From positions 1,727,266 to 1,759,265 of the forward strand of contig NZ_CALYLO010000001.1 in the NCBI RefSeq assembly GCF_944800085.1: a stretch of DNA of 32,000 nt. Reading direction: 5' to 3'. Numbering within the stretch: position 1 is the first letter of the stretch; every line of letters starts with the position of its first letter. The translations under genes were made by a program, and so were the position numbers. Below, in pieces: positions 1,795 through 24,507 of the stretch. This DNA comes from Paenibacillus melissococcoides. Lineage in GTDB: Bacteria > Bacillota > Bacilli > Paenibacillales > Paenibacillaceae. Below the pieces are notes generated by a model that searched no databases, was not told where the DNA came from, and worked only from the letters and a program-made list of their open reading frames with translations.

Positions 1795-2388
1795 TTGTCT
1801 CAATGGAATATAGATATCTTTCGCGCCATTAATGATCTGGGCAAGCAATTCGCTTCCCTCAATCCGGCCGCCGTCTTCGTGGCGGAATATATGCTGTACC
1901 TGCTGGCCTTGGCCATGCTTGTCTATTGGTTCACCCGCAGCGGCCGGAACCGAATGATGGTGATCCAGGCGGGACTTGCGTTTATTTTGGCGGAAATCAT
2001 GGGGAAAGCGGCCGGCAAGCTCTACTCGCATCATCAGCCGTTCGCTGAGCTTCCGCAGGTCAATAAGCTGATTGACCATGCTATCGATAATTCTTTTCCG
2101 AGCGATCATACGATTCTCTTCTTCTCCGTCTGTGTCTCCTTCTGGCTCGTTCGCAGGAAGGAAGGGTGGATCTGGCTTGCGCTCGCATGCTGCGTAGCCG
2201 TCTCCCGGATCTGGGTAGGGGTTCATTATCCTGTAGATATCGCGGCGGGGGCGCTTATGGGCATTGTGTCCGCCTTGGTCATGTACTGGCTCATTCCCAA
2301 GCTCGGGTTCGTCAAGCGACTGCTTGCTCTGTATGAACGGGCGGAGCGGCGCATCCTGCCGAGCAGAAGCAAATCCGATAGCTTCTGA
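1795..2388 (+). CDS. bcrC: PAP2-family undecaprenyl-diphosphate phosphatase, BcrC-like, 197 aa
   Basis: GGAGGA at 1781-1786, TTG start at 1795. PAP2 motifs FPSDHT and SRIWVGVHYPVD. Length and layout match B. subtilis/B. licheniformis BcrC. Confidence 0.8.
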   Translation: MSQWNIDIFRAINDLGKQFASLNPAAVFVAEYMLYLLALAMLVYWFTRSGRNRMMVIQAGLAFILAEIMGKAAGKLYSHHQPFAELPQVNKLIDHAIDNSFPSDHTILFFSVCVSFWLVRRKEGWIWLALACCVAVSRIWVGVHYPVDIAAGALMGIVSALVMYWLIPKLGFVKRLLALYERAERRILPSRSKSDSF

Positions 2389-2392
2389 GAAG

Positions 2393-2660
2393 AAGGGGAG
2401 CTGTCCCATAAGTAGTTATTAGCTGCAGTGAGACAGCCCCCCTGCTTCTCGCCGCTCGACTCCCCGAAAAAACTGCGAAAGTGCAGTTTTCCCTTGTGAC
2501 GCGTACTCTGTTACAGGCATTCCTGCAAAACCGCAGGAATTTCAGCCATGCCAAGGGATTGGAAGAAAAAATAGGGGAAATTGATGTACTGTTGCAGGAA
2601 TGGCATCAGATAGCGGCGGAAATCGTGTAAATTCCTGTACCAATGCAGGATTCGCCTGCC
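2393..2660 (+). repeat. Copy A of a ~265-bp structured non-coding dispersed repeat (partner in inverted orientation at 24232-24492)
   Basis: By-eye alignment with the reverse complement of 24232-24492. Shared blocks: GGGG.TGTCCC...CAGTGAGACAGCCCCCTG, AACTGC.AAA.TGCAG, GTACTC.GTT.CAGG.ATTCCTGCA, AATTTCAG, TTGCAGGAAT, GTAAATT.CTG.A...CAGGAT. Contains several short hairpins, e.g. ATTCCTGC-6nt-GCAGGAAT. Confidence 0.75.
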
Positions 2661-5078: not shown

Positions 5079-6210
5079 CCCCGCATCGGTCTTTCAAGTT
5101 CTGCTGCTCGATGAGACCAAGAATAAAAAGTGGACCAGGGAGCTGTTCGCGGTCGCGGCCGTCATGGCGGTCATCCTGTTCGTCATCCCCGCTCCGTATA
5201 CAGCTCTCGGCCTCCAATCGCTGGGCACCCTTCTGAAGGGGACGATGGCGGCTGCATTGTATTTGTCGACGCTGTCGTCCATCTCCAAGGTCCGAGACCG
5301 GAAGTACAAGCTGATGCTGTCTCTGCCGATAGACAAGAGAACGTTCATTTTCCAGTATGCGCTCGTGTTATGGATCAAGACCTATGCGCTTCGCGTCATG
5401 CCCATAGTCCTGTCCATTCTTGCCGTAAGCATGCATAGCGGGAGGCTCACGCTTCTGCAATCCGTCTTGGCAGGGGCGGCATGCGCCATCGCCGGGTGGA
5501 CCGCTTCATTCGTCAGCATTGGCGCCGTTATTTTCGCTTATGAACGCGGCTTCCTGCGGTTCCCGTCGGGGCGATCGAGCATGAAGTTCAACTGGCTCAA
5601 GCGGGAGTTCGTCCGCTTCGCAAGCGATAAAGTGCTCCTTGTGAATCACATTGGGTATTCGTTGTTTATACTCTTTTTCCTCTGGAACGCCGTTACGGTC
5701 TCCGGTGTGGACAACGAATTGGCGCTCTTCCTGTTGACTCTGCTGTCGACATGCTCGACGCCCGGCGTGTTGTTCTCCTATGAGAAGCCCTGCCGCGAGC
5801 TGCTGCTGTCGCTGCCGGTATCGATGAAGAGCCTGTTCGCCGGGAAATATATATTCAGTCTCGTGATTACGGTGCCTCTGTATGCGGCTGCCTATGCGAT
5901 CGTCCGCGCCTCTCATCCGGCGGGGTATTCGCCAGGGCTGCTCTTTGTCATGCTGTGCTCGCTCGTACTCATCACGTTCCTCAAGCTGTATTACGACTAT
6001 AAGCGGCCGAATTACAATTGGAGCCATACCCGCCAGATGTTCGAGCATAAGCGCAAGTATGCGCTCTGGGCCATGTCGATGGCCGTATCGGCAACCTGGA
6101 TGTTATACTCATATGTGTCGATACCCGGGATCATCGCTGCCCAATCGCTATTGACGTGGGGCTTCCTGTTCGCGATTCGGAGGGGAGGACACTCAGACCG
6201 GGCAACCTAG
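5071..6210 (+). CDS. Polytopic membrane protein, presumed permease partner of the preceding ATPase, ~379 aa
   Basis: ATG overlaps the ATPase stop (ATGACTAA). Highly hydrophobic throughout with many TM segments. I recognise no family motif. Confidence 0.6.
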   Translation: MTNPASVFQVLLLDETKNKKWTRELFAVAAVMAVILFVIPAPYTALGLQSLGTLLKGTMAAALYLSTLSSISKVRDRKYKLMLSLPIDKRTFIFQYALVLWIKTYALRVMPIVLSILAVSMHSGRLTLLQSVLAGAACAIAGWTASFVSIGAVIFAYERGFLRFPSGRSSMKFNWLKREFVRFASDKVLLVNHIGYSLFILFFLWNAVTVSGVDNELALFLLTLLSTCSTPGVLFSYEKPCRELLLSLPVSMKSLFAGKYIFSLVITVPLYAAAYAIVRASHPAGYSPGLLFVMLCSLVLITFLKLYYDYKRPNYNWSHTRQMFEHKRKYALWAMSMAVSATWMLYSYVSIPGIIAAQSLLTWGFLFAIRRGGHSDRAT

Positions 6211-16989: not shown

Positions 16990-17821
16990 GGGCGTGTATG
17001 CAAACCTTAAGCCAACCAGATCATGGAAGAGGCCAGCTTTAAGAAGGCAACAAAAGTACAGGCCAATTTATCGTACCGAGTTGCCAGCCGACGATTATGT
17101 TTGAGTTTGTTGAACAGGCATTCGACCAGATGACGCTCTTTATACAACCACCAGTCGGTTGTACGTTGGATCGTGCGATTCTTCTTACTGGGAATGACGG
17201 AATGGGCCAGTTTCTCTTCCAAAAGCGCAATGATTTTATCGGTATCGTATCCGCGATCCGCCAAAACATGTTTACCTTGTATGTCTTGGGTTTGCAGGAT
17301 CTCATAACCCGTTACACAATCATTGATGTTGCCTGCGGTTACTTCGAAGCGTAGCGGATTGCCAAGGCCGTCTACAACGGCATGAATCTTGCTGGTTAAG
17401 CCTCCGCGTGATCGTCCGATGGCTTGGAATTGCTGGCCCCTTTTGCCCCCGCGCCGTGTTGGTGAACACGAACGATGGAAGCATCGAGCATAACACTTTC
17501 GTCATCGGGATTGGCAGCCAGAACCTCTAGCATTCGATCAAAGATGCCTGCTTTCTCCCAGCGGCGGAAACGACTGTAGACACTGCTCCAGGAGCCATAA
17601 TGCTCTGGCAAGTCTCGCCAAGGCGCACCAGAACGAATCACCCAAAGCATGGCATTGAACATTTTTCGGTTATCGATTGCCGGACGTCCACCCTGTGGTT
17701 TCCGTTCCGGTGGCAAGAGGTCTTTGAGTCGTTCCCATTGGTCATCTCGTATCTCATATCGTCTTCTCATAGGATAAGTTTACCAGATATTTGGCTATTT
17801 CGATAGTTTGCGTACACGCCC
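16990..17821 (-). mobile_element. IS5-family insertion sequence (IS427-group-like), copy 2, 832 bp, inside vanY
   Basis: Same IRs and orientation as copy 1. TA (or CTA/CTAG) duplication. Removing the IS and one TA restores gct cta gaa gaa = ALEE of VanY. Confidence 0.9.
17007..17770 (-). CDS. IS5-family DDE transposase (orfA/orfB, -1 frameshift), copy 2
   Basis: Identical to the copy 1 protein except for substitutions caused by 3 SNPs (17400, 17436, 17525). Confidence 0.85.
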
Positions 17822-18512
17822 TAGAAGAATATATGGATTTTTTGAAGGAACAGAAGTCCATTACGACTACAATAGACCACCAAGTCTATAAAATCTTTTA
17901 CTATCCTATCTCCCAAAATACAACAATTTCTGTGCCTGCGAATGGCCAGTATGAAATTTCAGGCAACAATATGGATGGCGTGATTGTGACAGTGTATTCT
18001 GGTAAGCGAGACTAAGTTTACGGCGGACAAGGCTCGGGCGGAGAGGAACGGATGAACGGCGGAAGCAGGTTGTAGAATTGGGTTGTTCGGGCATTTTTTG
18101 CCTCCTATATGTACGCATTATTCAAAATCATCCTGCTCAAGTTTGGCCAGGCAGACGTCGAGTTTCTATGGGTACGGCTAATGCGAAACTCGACCAACCC
18201 GGAATGTATTGCCGCTCGGCTGCATGCCGGCAATCTGATTTTCCTTATTGCGGGTGGTAACAGCTTCGCTATGACATGATTGAACAGAAAACAGGTATCT
18301 CAAGAGTAACTGTCGCAAAAAGAAATCAATCCAGATGTGATTTTTAAAGATGGTAAAACAGAGCGTATGAATGTATTCATTCGTTATAGAAACATAGAGA
18401 GCCAAGAATAAATAATTTCTTAGTACGGTTATTCTAATTTCTTGTACATTCATGCCCATAAGCGAACCAGCATTGTTTCAGGGTGGCGCGACAAGAAATT
18501 GGAGGAGAAATA

Positions 18513-18989
18513 TTGGAAAATAAAAAATTGACATTCGTATTATTCATAATCTATGTATTAGCACTTATTTGGTTAGTTCTTTTTAAGTTACAGTTTTCTT
18601 TTGATCAAATAGACAGAGTGCGAGTAATTAATATGATTCCACTTAATAAGTCTGTGTTTTCTGAGGTGTATAGCAATATAAGCATTTTTGTACCTTTGGG
18701 TATCTATATTTGCATGTTGAAAAGTAAGTGGTCTTTTATGAAAAAACTTGTTTCAATTCTTGGTTTTACTCTGGCATTTGAGATTATACAATTTGTTTTA
18801 GCAATCGGAAGAAGTGATATTACTGATATACTGGCCAATACACTTGGAGGTACAATCGGTATTGGTATTTATGAGCTATTATTCAAGATTCTAAAACACA
18901 GGACGAATAAATTTATAAATTTATTTGCCTTGGTGTTAACTTCTTGTGCCATATTTTTTATTCTCTTTATATTTAAAAGGCACAGGTAG
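18513..18989 (+). CDS. vanZ: VanZ-like membrane protein, ~158 aa
   Basis: GGAGGAG at 18501-18507 followed by TTG at 18513. LIWLVLFKLQ, FEIIQFVLAIGRSDITDILANTLGG match the VanZ family and the Tn1546 VanZ pattern. Very AT-rich. Confidence 0.8.
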   Translation: MENKKLTFVLFIIYVLALIWLVLFKLQFSFDQIDRVRVINMIPLNKSVFSEVYSNISIFVPLGIYICMLKSKWSFMKKLVSILGFTLAFEIIQFVLAIGRSDITDILANTLGGTIGIGIYELLFKILKHRTNKFINLFALVLTSCAIFFILFIFKRHR

Positions 18990-19042
18990 GTACGTAATGA
19001 ATGAATTAGATTAGATGGAACACGGTATGTGGGGAAAATTTC

Positions 19043-19075
19043 CTTAACGTTGTAAATTCGCATTTTCCTGACGCT
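19043..19075 (-). repeat. Tn1546-like (Tn3-family) right terminal inverted repeat, inner 33 of 38 bp; outer GGGGT missing
   Basis: The reverse complement AGCGTCAGGAAAATGCGAATTTACAACGTTAAG matches 31/33 of my recollection of the Tn1546 IR (GGGGTAGCGTCAGGAAAATGCGGATTTACAACGCTAAG). Confidence 0.7.
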
Positions 19076-19344
19076 GGAGCCGATGTTCAGCGATGTCAGG
19101 GAAAAGCTGGAGATGCATCGCGCGTTTGTGATGCCGCATACCGTCTACATCCCGGAGAACCATCATGCCGGCACGATTGAGATCGTTACGGTGATGGCAG
19201 GGTCCATCGAATTAACGATCGGAGAGAAGACGTATTCGCTGCAAACCTTTGATTCCATCCAATTCTCGGCCGCGGAATCCCACCGCTATCATAATCCCGG
19301 CGAGGAGGAAGCGGTATTTGCATCTAACGATGTGTTACCCTTGA
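19070..19344 (+). repeat. Direct repeat copy 2 (relic of the XRE-cupin gene 3' end), right flank of the van island
   Basis: See 9632-9905. Carries an extra T at ~19318 that shifts the frame at the C-terminus. Confidence 0.9.
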
Positions 19345-19385
19345 TCGAGAGGATTATGAATGATACTAGTGAAATGGGGTCATAA
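19083..19385 (+). pseudogene. 5'-truncated, frameshifted duplicate of the cupin domain of the XRE-cupin regulator
   Basis: MFSDVREKLEMHRAFVMPHTVYIPENHHAGTIEIVTVMAGSIELTIGEKTYSLQTFDSIQFSAAESHRYHNPGEEEAV is identical to residues ~104-181 of the 9336..9905 product (ATG-9336 numbering), followed by a divergent tail. No HTH domain and no RBS. Confidence 0.85.
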
Positions 19386-19401
19386 TAAAACGCAACAAAA
19401 A

Positions 19402-19437
19402 AAAGACTCTGGCGGTTACATGGCCGCCAGAGTCTTT
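19402..19437 (-). terminator. Intrinsic terminator of the metallophosphoesterase gene (14-bp stem, U-tract on the minus strand)
   Basis: AAAGACTCTGGCGG ttacatgg CCGCCAGAGTCTTT. The A8 run at 19397-19404 gives a T-run on the minus strand. The stop codon lies in the loop. Confidence 0.75.
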
Positions 19438-20291
19438 GCTTGTTCTTGTTCGCTATTCGATGCGGATGATGCCAACGGCAAGCGGTGGATGGTGATTTCA
19501 GGCCGGCTGCCTACGCGAATGTTCACTCCAGTCTGCCCCAAGCCTTCGCTGATATAGAATGGTTTGCCGTCATAGACATGCAGACCTTTGATCATATTCA
19601 TGCCGACCAGCTTCCCCATGGCCGCCAAATGATACGGCTTCGGCCAATGGATTTGTCCTCCATGAAAATGGCCGCAAAGCAAATAATCAAACCGATAGCG
19701 TCTCATGTTCAGCACAATATTCGGATCATGCGTAAGGACAAGACGGTATCCGTGCCCGATTCCATGGAAGGAAGCGGCGAGATCGCTTCGTTCCGTGCTG
19801 GAGTCATCGATCCCGATAATATTGAGCCGCGTACCGTTGATGTCAATCCTGTCATTCTCGTTCTGCAGCGTTTTACAACCGTTCTGCTCTAAGGTTTGCT
19901 GCAACGAAGCAAAGTCCTTCCCCTTCAGCACATAATCATGATTCCCGAACACTGCGTACATGCCGTATTTCGGCTGCAGGCGGTTCAGCACCTTGAGATA
20001 AGGGACCAGCTTCGGTATAGAGCGGGTCCGATCGAGAAAATCGCCGGTAAGAGCGATGAGATCGATCTGTTCATCTGCAAGCTTGTCGAATAATTGATTG
20101 GGCGAAATCGAGATGTTCTCCAGATGCAAGTCCGATAGATGCAAGACATGAATGGCCTGTCCGGAACGATTCGGTCCATTGCTCTCCAAGCTGATCTTGT
20201 TCATATTTACTTGCCGCGTATTCAGATGAGCTTTATATAAAAGGTAGGTCAGCATAGCCAGGAGGATTGCGATAAACACAAAAAATAGCAT
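19416..20291 (-). CDS. Membrane-anchored metallophosphoesterase (calcineurin-like, YkuE-type), 291 aa
   Basis: N-terminal TM. Motifs HLSDLHL, GDFLD, GNHD, THDP, GHFHGG. Confidence 0.85.
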   Translation of the reverse strand: MLFFVFIAILLAMLTYLLYKAHLNTRQVNMNKISLESNGPNRSGQAIHVLHLSDLHLENISISPNQLFDKLADEQIDLIALTGDFLDRTRSIPKLVPYLKVLNRLQPKYGMYAVFGNHDYVLKGKDFASLQQTLEQNGCKTLQNENDRIDINGTRLNIIGIDDSSTERSDLAASFHGIGHGYRLVLTHDPNIVLNMRRYRFDYLLCGHFHGGQIHWPKPYHLAAMGKLVGMNMIKGLHVYDGKPFYISEGLGQTGVNIRVGSRPEITIHRLPLASSASNSEQEQAKTLAAM

Positions 20292-24231: not shown

Positions 24232-24492
24232 GGCAGCGTGATCCTGGTTAATGCAGCAATTTACGTTATTTGACCTCCTATTTTGATGAAATTCCTGCAA
24301 AAGCACATTATTTTCATCGATTTTTATTTTATATTTATTGGATAGTCTGAAATTGATGCAGTTGTGCAGGATTCCCTGCAACGGAGTACAGGTCATAAAG
24401 GAAAGCTGCAGTTTTGCAGTTTTCGGCGAGACGAGCTTTGAGAATCAGGGGGCTGTCTCACTGTAGTTAAATACTGCCTTTGGGACACCCCC
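24232..24492 (-). repeat. Copy B of the ~265-bp structured dispersed repeat (inverted relative to 2393-2660)
   Basis: See copy A. Begins directly 3' of the minus-strand gene 24508..24957, just as copy A begins directly 3' of bcrC. Confidence 0.75.
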
Positions 24493-24507
24493 TTTTTTTG
24501 GTTTCCG

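What the first reader, a model, noticed from the sequence alone, without database searches (positions are those of the whole stretch)
19043..19080. Truncated Tn1546-like right inverted repeat fused to host DNA through a 6-bp microhomology (GACGCT)
54 bp downstream of vanZ, the reverse complement of 19043-19075 matches 31/33 positions of the Tn1546 38-bp terminal IR as I recall it. The outermost 5 nt (GGGGT) are missing.

The junction hexamer GACGCT (19070-19075) is shared by the IR (..CCTGACGCTACCCC) and by the host cupin gene (..TTGGACGCTGGAGCC, see 9632-9637). There is no 5-bp Tn3-family target duplication and no left IR anywhere in the window.

The cluster was therefore once part of a Tn1546-like transposon, but reached this site by illegitimate (microhomology) joining rather than by transposition.
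Basis: partly seen in the sequence, partly recalled or inferred. Interest (0 to 1): 0.65.

Follow-up and report, generated by a model that had tools for sequence, protein, structure and literature searches.

The report
Dead Tn1546-type transposon end beside vanZ
Next to a vancomycin-resistance gene cluster in a soil Paenibacillus chromosome lies the broken-off end of a Tn1546-type transposon, showing that the cluster once travelled in such a transposon but was fixed here by ordinary recombination, not by transposition.

Summary
Window 19043-19075 matches the inner 33 nt of the Tn1546 terminal repeat at 31/33 positions, with 0 matches expected by chance. It matches 40/40 nt (19036-19075) of the right end of a complete Tn1546-like van transposon I found in Brevibacillus laterosporus. 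That element has 38-bp inverted repeats, a 5-bp target duplication (TATTT) and a decayed tnpA.

The outer 5 nt (ACCCC) are missing. The break lies in a GACGCT hexamer that both parents carry: the intact repeat, and the cupin gene in four related, van-free Paenibacillus species. The window holds no second repeat, no tnpA and no tnpR, and the break shows no 5-bp duplication.

The van segment (9936-19069) is bracketed by an imperfect direct repeat of the cupin 3' end (9632-9935 and 19070-19372, about 96% identical over 285 bp). The first 114 bp are identical, and all seven later substitutions are synonymous.

Integration therefore most likely combined a homologous crossover in the cupin gene with one microhomology joint. 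This could be a single crossover of a recircularised fragment, or homology-facilitated illegitimate recombination. The junction is base-for-base identical in four other assemblies.

This is a new member of known kinds and moderately interesting for the origin of Tn1546.

The parts
9324..9905 (+). Host HTH_3 + Cupin_2 regulator gene, full length (called as 189 aa from 9336). It contains the native GACGCT at 9632-9637.
   Evidence: ORF. Pfam HTH_3 1.5e-14 and Cupin_2 1.8e-13. Orthologues in P. dendritiformis, P. thiaminolyticus BO5, P. profundus and P. apiarius end with the same ...VLHLTMCYP*.
9632..9935 (+). Left copy of the direct repeat: the last 274 bp of the cupin gene plus about 30 bp of tail. 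It is robust to 9915 and weaker but alignable to AAATGG at 9930-9935.
   Evidence: the repeat finder families D2 and D3; pairwise alignment; 96.1% over 285 bp.
9936..10044 (+). Left edge of the van segment (ATCAGCGGATATCC...) and the region upstream of vanR. The same edge occurs in P. apiarius and B. laterosporus B9, each with unrelated DNA to its left.
   Evidence: blastn starts at 9936 against L025 (98.7%) and L002 (98.1%); alignment.
10045..11884 (+). vanR (10045-10740) and vanS (10730-11884).
   Evidence: NCBIfam VanR-A 531 bits (cut-off 500) and VanS 441 bits (cut-off 400). 91.5% nt identity to Tn1546 and 97.5% to L028.
11884..12715 (-). IS5-family insertion sequence, copy A (832 bp). Terminal repeats are GGGCGTGTAYGCAAAC and it is flanked by TA. 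It sits exactly at the vanS stop codon.
   Evidence: Pfam DUF4096 and DDE_Tnp_1_2; NCBIfam IS5 family transposase; boundaries read.
13234..15852 (+). vanH (13234-14214), vanA-type ligase (14207-15241) and vanX (15244-15852).
   Evidence: NCBIfam VanH-A/Pt 707 bits (cut-off 700); generic D-Ala-D-Lac ligase 681 bits (cut-off 550); VanA-specific model 769 bits, just under its 775 cut-off; VanX 373 bits. About 90% nt identity to Tn1546.
16290..18018 (+). vanY pseudogene. It is frameshifted (16290-16649 and 16639-17010) and split by IS copy B, with its 3' remnant at 17822 to about 18018.
   Evidence: ORFs; Pfam VanY; blastn to L025, L028 and L001 on both sides of the IS.
16990..17821 (-). IS5-family insertion sequence, copy B. 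It is 99.2% identical to copy A and flanked by TA.
18513..18989 (+). vanZ. It is 95% identical to the VanZ of the B. laterosporus Tn1546-like element and only 38% identical to VanZ-A of Tn1546.
18995..19037 (+). Post-vanZ segment homologous to Tn1546 (90.7% over 43 nt). After it the window lacks about 115 bp present in Tn1546 and about 420 bp present in L028.
   Evidence: blastn; sequences read.
19036..19075 (-). Relic of the right terminal inverted repeat of a Tn1546-family transposon. It comprises the inner 33 nt (19043-19075) plus 7 nt of adjoining interior. The outer 5 nt (5'-GGGGT on the - strand) are missing.
   Evidence: 31/33 to Tn1546 IRL and IRR; 40/40 to L028 10918-10957 and L029.
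19070..19075 (.). GACGCT: the 6-bp overlap shared by the repeat and the cupin gene, which is the illegitimate joint.
   Evidence: Intact IRR in L028 and L029 reads ...CCTGACGCTACCCC. Cupin orthologues read ..TGGACGCT... The hexamer occurs 23 times in the window.
19070..19372 (+). Right copy of the direct repeat: a 5'-truncated cupin fragment with an extra T near 19316 that shifts the frame. Its tail resembles the P. dendritiformis G25-126 tail.
   Evidence: ORF 19083-19385 hits Cupin_2.
19416..20291 (-). Host metallophosphoesterase gene, the native right-hand neighbour region of the cupin gene in relatives.
   Evidence: Pfam Metallophos; synteny in L013, L014 and L030-L034.

Best explanation
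Window 19036-19075 is a dead relic of the right terminal inverted repeat of a Tn1546-family (Tn3-family) transposon that once carried this vanRSHAX-Y-Z cluster. It keeps the inner 33 nt of the repeat but lacks the outer 5 nt, which are invariant in every complete copy seen here. From general Tn3-family knowledge, the inner part is where the transposase binds and the outer tip is where it cuts. There is no partner repeat and no transposase gene nearby, so the relic cannot act as a transposon end.

The relic is fused to the interior of the host HTH-cupin gene at a GACGCT hexamer present in both parents. That makes the joint a microhomology-mediated illegitimate joint. The van segment (9936-19069) is bracketed by direct repeats of the cupin 3' end. 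The segment plus one repeat copy makes a 9,438-bp unit.

The most likely history has three steps. First, in a close relative, a fragment consisting of the cupin 3' end, the van cluster and the IRR was cut out or taken up, and was closed or joined at the two GACGCT copies. Second, it entered this chromosome by a homologous crossover within the cupin gene. This would be either a Campbell-type single crossover of the circularised fragment or homology-facilitated illegitimate recombination. The result was one intact hybrid cupin gene on the left and a truncated copy on the right. Third, the truncated copy picked up a frameshift, two IS5-family copies landed in the cluster, and vanY decayed.

Shown: the identity of the relic, its truncation, the shared hexamer, the flanking repeat, and the absence of transposition hallmarks. 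Inferred: the order of events and the circle-or-linear intermediate. The confidence of 0.6 is for the whole statement. The relic and its non-transpositional junction alone rate about 0.9, and the specific recombination path about 0.5.
For: Repeat identity:
- 31/33 to Tn1546, with 0 expected by chance.
- 40/40 to the IRR side of a complete Tn1546-like van transposon in B. laterosporus (L028 1187-10962). That element has 38-bp repeats, a TATTT duplication on both sides and TnpA fragments about 92% identical to Tn1546 TnpA. L029 carries the same element.
- VanZ is 95% identical to that element's VanZ.

Not a transposition product:
- The outer ACCCC is absent.
- There is no second repeat at up to 10 mismatches.
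- There is no tnpA or tnpR.
- The flank is cupin coding sequence, not a 5-bp duplication.

Microhomology:
- GACGCT is native in the cupin gene of four van-free species and of P. dendritiformis strains.
- It is native in the intact IRR.

Recombination:
- A 285-bp direct repeat at 96.1% identity flanks the insert.
- There are 0 differences in the first 114 bp and 8 in the next 160 bp (P = 0.0135 for that clustering).
- All 7 substitutions are synonymous (P about 2-3e-4 if all were neutral).
- The right tail resembles the native G25-126 tail; the left tail, next to van, does not.

Empty sites and published precedent:
- Relatives have cupin, a variable spacer and then the metallophosphoesterase gene, without van.
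- Single crossovers of recircularised, partly deleted molecules give 109-950 bp duplications of the homologous locus. Joints in homology-facilitated illegitimate recombination carry 3-10 bp microhomology (PMC3240628).
Against: - No van-free strain of the same lineage and no donor with a cupin-van adjacency was found, so donor and recipient alleles are inferred rather than observed.
- Both repeat copies share lineage-specific residues (F118, M120, A167). Any donor was therefore very close, and an in-situ duplication is not excluded.
- When the differences are polarised by outgroups, only 2-3 substitutions are specific to the right copy. The synonymous-only argument for that copy is therefore weak (P = 0.02-0.12).
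- A plain Campbell crossover does not by itself explain the identical first 114 bp. It needs heteroduplex repair, or alleles that happened to be identical there.
- The rest of the genome could not be scanned for a left repeat or tnpA.
Confidence: 0.6

Rival explanations
1. Transposition here, followed by local decay. A complete Tn1546-like element transposed next to the cupin gene in an ancestor. Later microhomology-mediated rearrangements produced today's structure. One deletion between the GACGCT in the IRR and a GACGCT in a second cupin copy removed the repeat tip. Other deletions removed tnpA and the left repeat.
For: Microhomology deletions clearly happen in this region. The window lacks about 115 bp (against Tn1546) or about 420 bp (against L028) between vanZ and the IRR, with an A-run at the deletion joint. 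The L028 element shows how far tnpA can decay in place. GACGCT is a frequent hexamer, with 23 copies in 32 kb.
Against: This needs a pre-existing second cupin copy to the right of the element, but every relative has a single copy. The left edge of the van segment at 9936 is not a transposon end; it is an edge shared with P. apiarius and B9. There is no trace of tnpA or tnpR. It requires more steps than the recombination model.
Confidence: 0.2
2. Double illegitimate insertion with an in-situ duplication of about 300 bp of target. A van-IRR fragment was joined at both ends by microhomology (ATGG on the left, GACGCT on the right) across a staggered or replicating target. The two cupin copies then diverged in place, and gene conversion kept the first 114 bp identical.
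For: Both copies share lineage-specific amino acids. Differences are split about evenly between the copies when polarised by outgroups. A possible ATGG overlap exists at the left joint: host tail ..GAAATGG.. and the P. apiarius flank ..TTATGGAA|ATCAGCGG.
Against: The truncated right copy should drift neutrally, yet all of its substitutions are synonymous. The non-coding tail is far more diverged than the coding part: about 5 differences in 31 nt, then about 50%, against 5% in the coding part. That pattern fits two alleles that diverged under selection rather than one duplicated tract. This rival also needs an extra gene-conversion step.
Confidence: 0.15
3. The repeat relic is unrelated to the van cluster. 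It comes from an independent Tn3-family element or miniature repeat element that happened to land beside vanZ and was later truncated.
For: The same repeat core occurs in 7 metagenome contigs without van genes. B. laterosporus B9 has a 239-bp miniature element with Tn1546-like repeats near its van cluster. TnpA proteins 95-97% identical to Tn1546 TnpA are spread across soil Bacillales.
Against: Position and orientation are the same as in Tn1546 and in L028. The 43-nt post-vanZ segment is shared with Tn1546, and the 7 nt internal to the repeat also match. vanZ is 97% identical in nucleotides to the L028 vanZ, which lies inside a complete element.
Confidence: 0.05

Closest known systems
Tn1546 (Tn3 family; the VanA transposon of Enterococcus, Arthur et al. 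1993, cited from my own knowledge). Sequence was taken here from pWZ1668, NC_014475.1.
   Same: Same cargo order, vanRSHAX-Y-Z, at about 86-91% nt identity for vanR to vanY. The same right repeat lies downstream of vanZ in the same orientation (31/33). The 43-nt post-vanZ segment is shared.
   Different: The window has only 33 of the 38 repeat nucleotides and lacks the terminal GGGGT. It has no IRL, no tnpA, no tnpR and no 5-bp duplication. Its vanZ is a different type (38% aa identity). About 115 bp between vanZ and the IRR are missing. It carries vanW and second-vanZ remnants and two IS5-family insertions.
Tn1546-like van transposon in Brevibacillus laterosporus (GCA_002259955.1, NOLX01000018.1; L028 1187-10962; also L029).
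   Same: The repeat is identical over the 40 nt retained in the window, including the T variant and GACGCT. VanZ is 95% identical, vanRS 97.5% nt and vanHAX 92.8% nt.
   Different: The Brevibacillus element is structurally complete: both 38-bp repeats, a TATTT duplication and tnpA remnants. The window has only the truncated right end, and its left part follows the P. apiarius/B9 type from 9936.
vanA-PA and vanA-PT operons of Paenibacillus apiarius and P. thiaminolyticus (Guardabassi et al. 2005, AAC 49:4227). The paper is not held in the library, so this is cited from my own knowledge and from the reference list of PMC9689679.
   Same: This is a chromosomal vanA-type cluster of soil Paenibacillus. 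It is 96-98.7% nt identical to the P. apiarius cluster in vanRS, vanY and vanZ, and it has the same left edge.
   Different: P. apiarius has an intact vanW and two vanZ-like genes, and no repeat relic within 10 kb. Its cluster is not at the cupin locus. I could not check whether the 2005 paper mentions a repeat downstream of vanZ-PT.
Single-crossover integration of a recircularised fragment, and homology-facilitated illegitimate recombination (PMC3240628; de Vries & Wackernagel 2002 and Prudhomme et al. 2002 from my own knowledge).
   Same: One homologous region is duplicated on both sides of foreign DNA (109-950 bp in the E. coli experiments, about 285-300 bp here). One illegitimate joint has 3-10 bp of microhomology (6 bp here).
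   Different: Those are laboratory events with short inserts. Here the product is a 9.1-kb resistance cluster fixed in a natural lineage. The intermediate and the transfer route (transformation, conjugation or transduction) are unknown.

Membership tests
Tn3-family transposon (Tn1546 subgroup), as a functional or complete element | Two terminal inverted repeats of about 38 bp | tested here: not met
   Only one repeat-like site exists in 32 kb at up to 10 mismatches. It covers 33 of 38 nt.
Tn3-family transposon (Tn1546 subgroup), as a functional or complete element | Repeat begins with the conserved terminal 5'-GGGG | tested here: not met
   The terminal GGGGT is replaced by cupin sequence (GCTCC on the repeat strand). 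The complete ends in L001, L028 and L029 and in six of seven metagenome contigs all read ...ACCCC.
Tn3-family transposon (Tn1546 subgroup), as a functional or complete element | 5-bp target-site duplication | tested here: not met
   The flank is the interior of the cupin gene. The duplication present is about 285-300 bp, not 5 bp. Controls: TTCTT in pWZ1668 and TATTT in L028 and L029.
Tn3-family transposon (Tn1546 subgroup), as a functional or complete element | DDE transposase TnpA, with a resolvase and res site | tested here: not met
   tblastn with Tn1546 TnpA and TnpR against the window gives a best E-value of 4. The rest of the genome was not testable.
Tn1546-family descent (a relic, not a functional element) | Repeat sequence homology, in the Tn1546 position and orientation relative to vanZ | tested here: met
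   31/33 to Tn1546 and 40/40 to L028. The post-vanZ segment is 90.7% identical to Tn1546.
VanA-type glycopeptide resistance cluster | vanR, vanS, vanH, a D-Ala-D-Lac ligase and vanX, in that order | tested here: met
   NCBIfam scores against cut-offs: VanR-A 531/500, VanS 441/400, VanH-A/Pt 707/700, D-Ala-D-Lac ligase 681/550 and VanX 373/320. The VanA-specific model scores 769, just under its 775 cut-off.
Single-crossover or homology-facilitated illegitimate integration | A homologous segment shared with the recipient, adjacent to the foreign DNA | tested here: met
   The cupin 3' end lies on both sides of the insert at 96.1% identity over 285 bp.
Single-crossover or homology-facilitated illegitimate integration | An illegitimate joint with 3-10 bp of microhomology present in both parental sequences | tested here: met
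   GACGCT occurs in the intact IRR and in van-free cupin orthologues.
Single-crossover or homology-facilitated illegitimate integration | One repeat copy carries the donor allele and the other the recipient allele | tested here: inconclusive
   Differences are synonymous only and clustered, and the tails are unlike, which favours two alleles. No donor and no conspecific empty site was found, and both copies share lineage-specific residues.

The most novel reading that the evidence does not exclude
The relic, together with the complete but decaying Tn1546-like van transposon in Brevibacillus laterosporus, would mean that the van cargo was already inside a Tn1546-family transposon while still circulating among soil Paenibacillaceae. 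In that case clinical Tn1546 was not assembled in or near enterococci. It would be one surviving branch of a soil transposon lineage whose other branches have been immobilised by recombination (this window) or by tnpA decay (Brevibacillus).
Probability: 0.45. Interest if true: 0.6.

Novelty: new member of a known kind. Interest (0 to 1): 0.45.

Why it matters
The vanA operon has long been thought to come from soil Paenibacillus-like bacteria. The step that put it into the Tn1546 backbone is undocumented. Here a Tn1546-family repeat is physically attached to a chromosomal Paenibacillus van cluster. A structurally complete relative, with both repeats and a target duplication, sits in Brevibacillus laterosporus. 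Both place transposon-borne van clusters in the soil reservoir.

Yushchuk et al. 2022 (PMC9689679) noted only 'a transposase pseudogene upstream of vanR' in four Brevibacillus strains. That paper nowhere uses the term Tn3 and names 'an unknown vehicle' for the transfer.

In this lineage the cluster is no longer mobilisable as a transposon. It could still be lost, or moved as a 9.4-kb circle, by recombination between the flanking 285-bp repeats. That bears on risk assessment of environmental van genes.

Tried and rejected
- MAFFT alignment of the vanZ-to-repeat region against Tn1546 misaligned because of the internal deletion. I replaced it with direct reading and blastn.
- The key older paper (Guardabassi 2005, PMC1251550) is not held. 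Full-text searches for Paenibacillus or Brevibacillus with Tn1546 found no description of this junction.
- Contexts of the closest VanZ homologues outside the family have no repeat within 10 kb: L022, L023 and L024 (P0001, P0002 and P0004; the last is from Pseudalkalibacillus salsuginis). The repeat is therefore not a general vanZ neighbour.
- The P0127 look-up returned nothing.
- I searched with Tn1546 TnpA hoping to see a hit on the 7.48-Mb chromosome of this lineage. None of the top 120 of 923 hits lies on it, but the list is truncated, so this is inconclusive.
- Exact-protein look-ups gave no clear van-free place. The four longer loci all show vanZ next to the truncated cupin copy, and the six short contigs end inside that copy. 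The empty site therefore had to come from other species.
- Rfam over the whole window found no match.
- Chance resemblance is rejected.
- I considered that GGAGC might be a variant repeat tip. I rejected this because it continues as cupin coding sequence for 285 bp.

Full report
**1.

Read directly, window 19043-19075 is CTTAACGTTGTAAATTCGCATTTTCCTGACGCT, followed by GGAGCC. I fetched a real copy from Enterococcus faecalis plasmid pWZ1668 (L001).

- Its left repeat is GGGGTAGCGTCAGGAAAATGCGGATTTACAACGCTAAG.
- Its right repeat reads CTTAACGTTGTAAATCCGCATTTTCCTGACGGTACCCC on the + strand.
- Both ends are flanked by TTCTT.

The window matches either repeat at 31 of 33 positions. A mismatch-tolerant search finds this one site and none in 100 shuffles. 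The five outermost nucleotides are absent. No other repeat-like site exists in the 32 kb at up to 10 mismatches. tblastn with Tn1546 TnpA and resolvase finds nothing.

**2. What surrounds it**

The window holds a chromosomal vanA-type cluster:

| Feature | Coordinates |
|---|---|
| vanR | 10045-10740 |
| vanS | 10730-11884 |
| IS5-family element, copy A | 11884-12715 |
| vanH | 13234-14214 |
| D-Ala-D-Lac ligase (vanA-type) | 14207-15241 |
| vanX | 15244-15852 |
| vanY, frameshifted and split by IS copy B | 16290 to about 18018 |
| IS5-family element, copy B | 16990-17821 |
| vanZ | 18513-18989 |

vanR to vanY are about 86-91% identical in nucleotides to Tn1546. vanZ is not the Tn1546 type (38% amino-acid identity). 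The 43 nt after vanZ (18995-19037) are 90.7% identical to the corresponding Tn1546 segment. The window then skips about 115 bp that Tn1546 has and runs into the repeat.

**3. A better reference than Tn1546**

I followed close VanZ homologues into their contigs. This turned up a structurally complete Tn1546-like van transposon in Brevibacillus laterosporus (L028 1187-10962, GCA_002259955.1). The same element occurs in a metagenome scaffold (L029).

- Its left repeat is GGGGTACCGTCAGGAAAATGCGGATTTACAACGCTAAG.
- Its right repeat is CTTAACGTTGTAAATTCGCATTTTCCTGACGCTACCCC.
- The pentamer TATTT lies on both sides.
- Fragmented TnpA reading frames are about 92% identical to Tn1546 TnpA.
- It has no resolvase gene, and then vanRSHAX-Y-Z.

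The window is identical to this element over all 40 nt it retains (19036-19075). Its VanZ is 95% identical. Two points follow. The ancestral repeat read GACGCT followed by ACCCC, so the overlap with the host really is six bases. And the window's right end descends from a transposon of this type.

**4. The host side**

GACGCT at 9632-9637 lies in a host gene for an HTH_3/Cupin_2 regulator (9324-9905). A scan of species-representative genomes with that protein found orthologous loci in four species:

- P. dendritiformis G25-126 (92.8% nt identity across the flank)
- P. thiaminolyticus BO5
- P. profundus
- P. apiarius

Further P. dendritiformis strains came from exact-protein look-ups. All have a single cupin gene. 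A variable spacer follows (0.7 kb, about 2.7 kb with three genes, or 3.7 kb), and then the metallophosphoesterase gene that lies at 19416-20291 in the window. None has van genes there. All carry ..GGACGCT.. at the same codon position. Both parents of the joint are therefore documented.

**5.

The cupin 3' end occurs twice in direct orientation, at 9632-9915 and 19070-19354. It is alignable, more weakly, on to AAATGG at 9935 and 19372. The copies bracket the van segment and are 9,438 bp apart.

They are 96.1% identical over 285 bp, but unevenly so. There are no differences in the first 114 bp. Then come seven substitutions and one extra T in the next 160 bp. The non-coding tail is much more diverged.

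- All seven substitutions are synonymous. The chance of that is 2-3 x 10^-4 if all were neutral, and 0.02-0.12 if only the two or three right-copy-specific changes are counted.
- The clustering of the differences has P = 0.0135.
- The extra T is unique to the right copy. Every orthologue shares the left copy's reading frame and its ...VLHLTMCYP end.
- The right copy's tail resembles the P. dendritiformis G25-126 tail. The left copy's tail, which abuts van, does not.
- Both copies share amino acids seen in none of 13 other alleles, so both come from this clade.

**6. Mechanism**

A transposase would have left a complete repeat and a 5-bp duplication, so this joint is not a transposition product. 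The structure is: an intact hybrid gene, then foreign DNA, then an illegitimate joint with 6-bp microhomology, then a 5'-truncated second copy of the same gene.

That is what a single homologous crossover of a recircularised fragment produces. Experiments in E. coli recovered exactly such 109-950-bp duplications. The same paper reports 3-10-bp microhomologies at the illegitimate joints of homology-facilitated recombination (PMC3240628).

I therefore favour this history. A fragment running cupin 3' end, van, IRR, from a close relative, was joined at the two GACGCT copies and entered through a crossover left of 9746. I rate the relic and its non-transpositional junction as near certain, and this particular path at about 0.5.

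The rivals are:

- local transposition followed by microhomology deletions (needs a second cupin copy that no relative has)
- double illegitimate insertion with an in-situ duplication of about 300 bp, followed by gene conversion
- an unrelated Tn3-family repeat that landed beside vanZ by coincidence (contradicted by the shared synteny)

**7. Distribution**

The right junction and the right cupin copy are base-for-base identical in four other assemblies (L003-L006). Two of these, L003 and L004, match the window at 100% over 20.9 kb. The exact cupin, VanZ and phosphoesterase proteins are each seen on 11 contigs. The arrangement is therefore fixed in a lineage rather than a one-off. I found no clear van-free member: the four longer loci all show vanZ beside the truncated cupin copy, and the six short contigs end inside that copy.

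**8. Comparison with the known**

This is not a Tn3-family transposon. Four defining features were tested and are not met. It is a relic of one, attached to a vanA-type cluster that is otherwise closest to the P. apiarius type: 96-98.7% identity in vanRS, vanY and vanZ, with the same left edge at 9936.

I found no description of the relic in the searchable literature. The 2005 paper on the Paenibacillus operons could not be read. Yushchuk et al. 2022 note only a 'transposase pseudogene' upstream of vanR in four Brevibacillus strains and never mention Tn3.

**9. Verdict**

The finding is a new member of known kinds. It is of moderate interest because it ties the Tn1546 backbone physically to soil Paenibacillaceae van clusters.

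Noticed in passing
L028 1187-10962 (B. laterosporus GCA_002259955.1, NOLX01000018.1); L029 455-10118: A structurally complete Tn1546-like van transposon in a soil Brevibacillus. It has 38-bp repeats and a 5-bp TATTT duplication. Its tnpA is broken into several frames that are about 92% identical to Tn1546 TnpA. It has no resolvase gene and carries vanRSHAX-Y-Z. I found no description of it as a Tn3-family element in the searchable literature.
   Followed up: partly
window 9936; L025 1955; L002 6001: The van cluster has the same left edge (ATCAGCGGATATCCTACGTGGAT...) about 100 bp upstream of vanR in this window, in P. apiarius and in B. laterosporus B9. The DNA to its left is unrelated in all three. 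That suggests a recurrent breakpoint or the end of an unrecognised mobile unit. The edge contains a 10-bp direct repeat, ATCAGYGGAT.
   Followed up: partly
L002 3028-3266, 17765-17802 and 1714-1878 (B. laterosporus B9, NZ_CP011076.1): A 239-bp miniature element is bounded by Tn1546-like repeats (one has 2 mismatches to the Tn1546 IRR, the other 9) and lies 2.7 kb upstream of the B9 van cluster. A degenerate right-end repeat lies about 4.7 kb downstream of vanY. A short TnpA C-terminal fragment (51% identity) is also present. No matching 5-bp duplications were seen.
   Followed up: partly
window 11884-12715 and 16990-17821: Two 832-bp IS5-family copies, 99.2% identical, each flanked by TA. Copy A sits exactly on the vanS stop codon and supplies the G of a new TAG stop, leaving vanS intact. 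Copy B splits vanY, which also carries a frameshift near 16640.
   Followed up: yes
window 12714-13121 and about 18020-18239: Remnants of genes that are intact in the P. apiarius cluster. One is a vanW fragment between vanS and vanH. The other is the start of a second vanZ-like gene after vanY. This cluster is therefore a deletion derivative of a vanRS-W-HAX-Y-Z-Z type.
   Followed up: partly
window 2380-2640 (+) and 24250-24510 (-); L013 14030-14260: A dispersed repeat of about 250 bp, with two inverted copies 22 kb apart that enclose the whole van locus. It is also present in P. dendritiformis G25-126. It starts with a GC-rich hairpin (GGGGCTGTC...GACAGCCCC). It has no Rfam match.
   Followed up: partly
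one search hit list (for example P0211-P0214, P0229, P0261, P0266): Full-length TnpA proteins 95-97% identical to Tn1546 TnpA occur in many soil Bacillales, including Bacillus, Cytobacillus, Paenibacillus kyungheensis, P. polymyxa and B. laterosporus. The Tn1546 backbone is therefore common outside enterococci.
   Followed up: no
L042 and L044, about 5760-5822 (IMG/VR contigs): An IRL-like and an IRR-like Tn1546-family repeat lie almost back to back (GGGGTAGCGTCAGGAAAATGAGCTTAGCGTTGTAAATCCGCATTTTCCTGACGCTACCCC). This is a minimal, roughly 60-bp repeat-only element on contigs classed as viral.
   Followed up: no
window 19355-19415 compared with L013 10584-11261, L014 10573-14271 and L030 3571-6246: The spacer between the cupin gene and the metallophosphoesterase gene is highly variable among relatives: 44 bp here, 0.7 kb, about 2.7 kb with three genes, and 3.7 kb. 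It looks like a local hotspot for insertions and deletions.
   Followed up: partly
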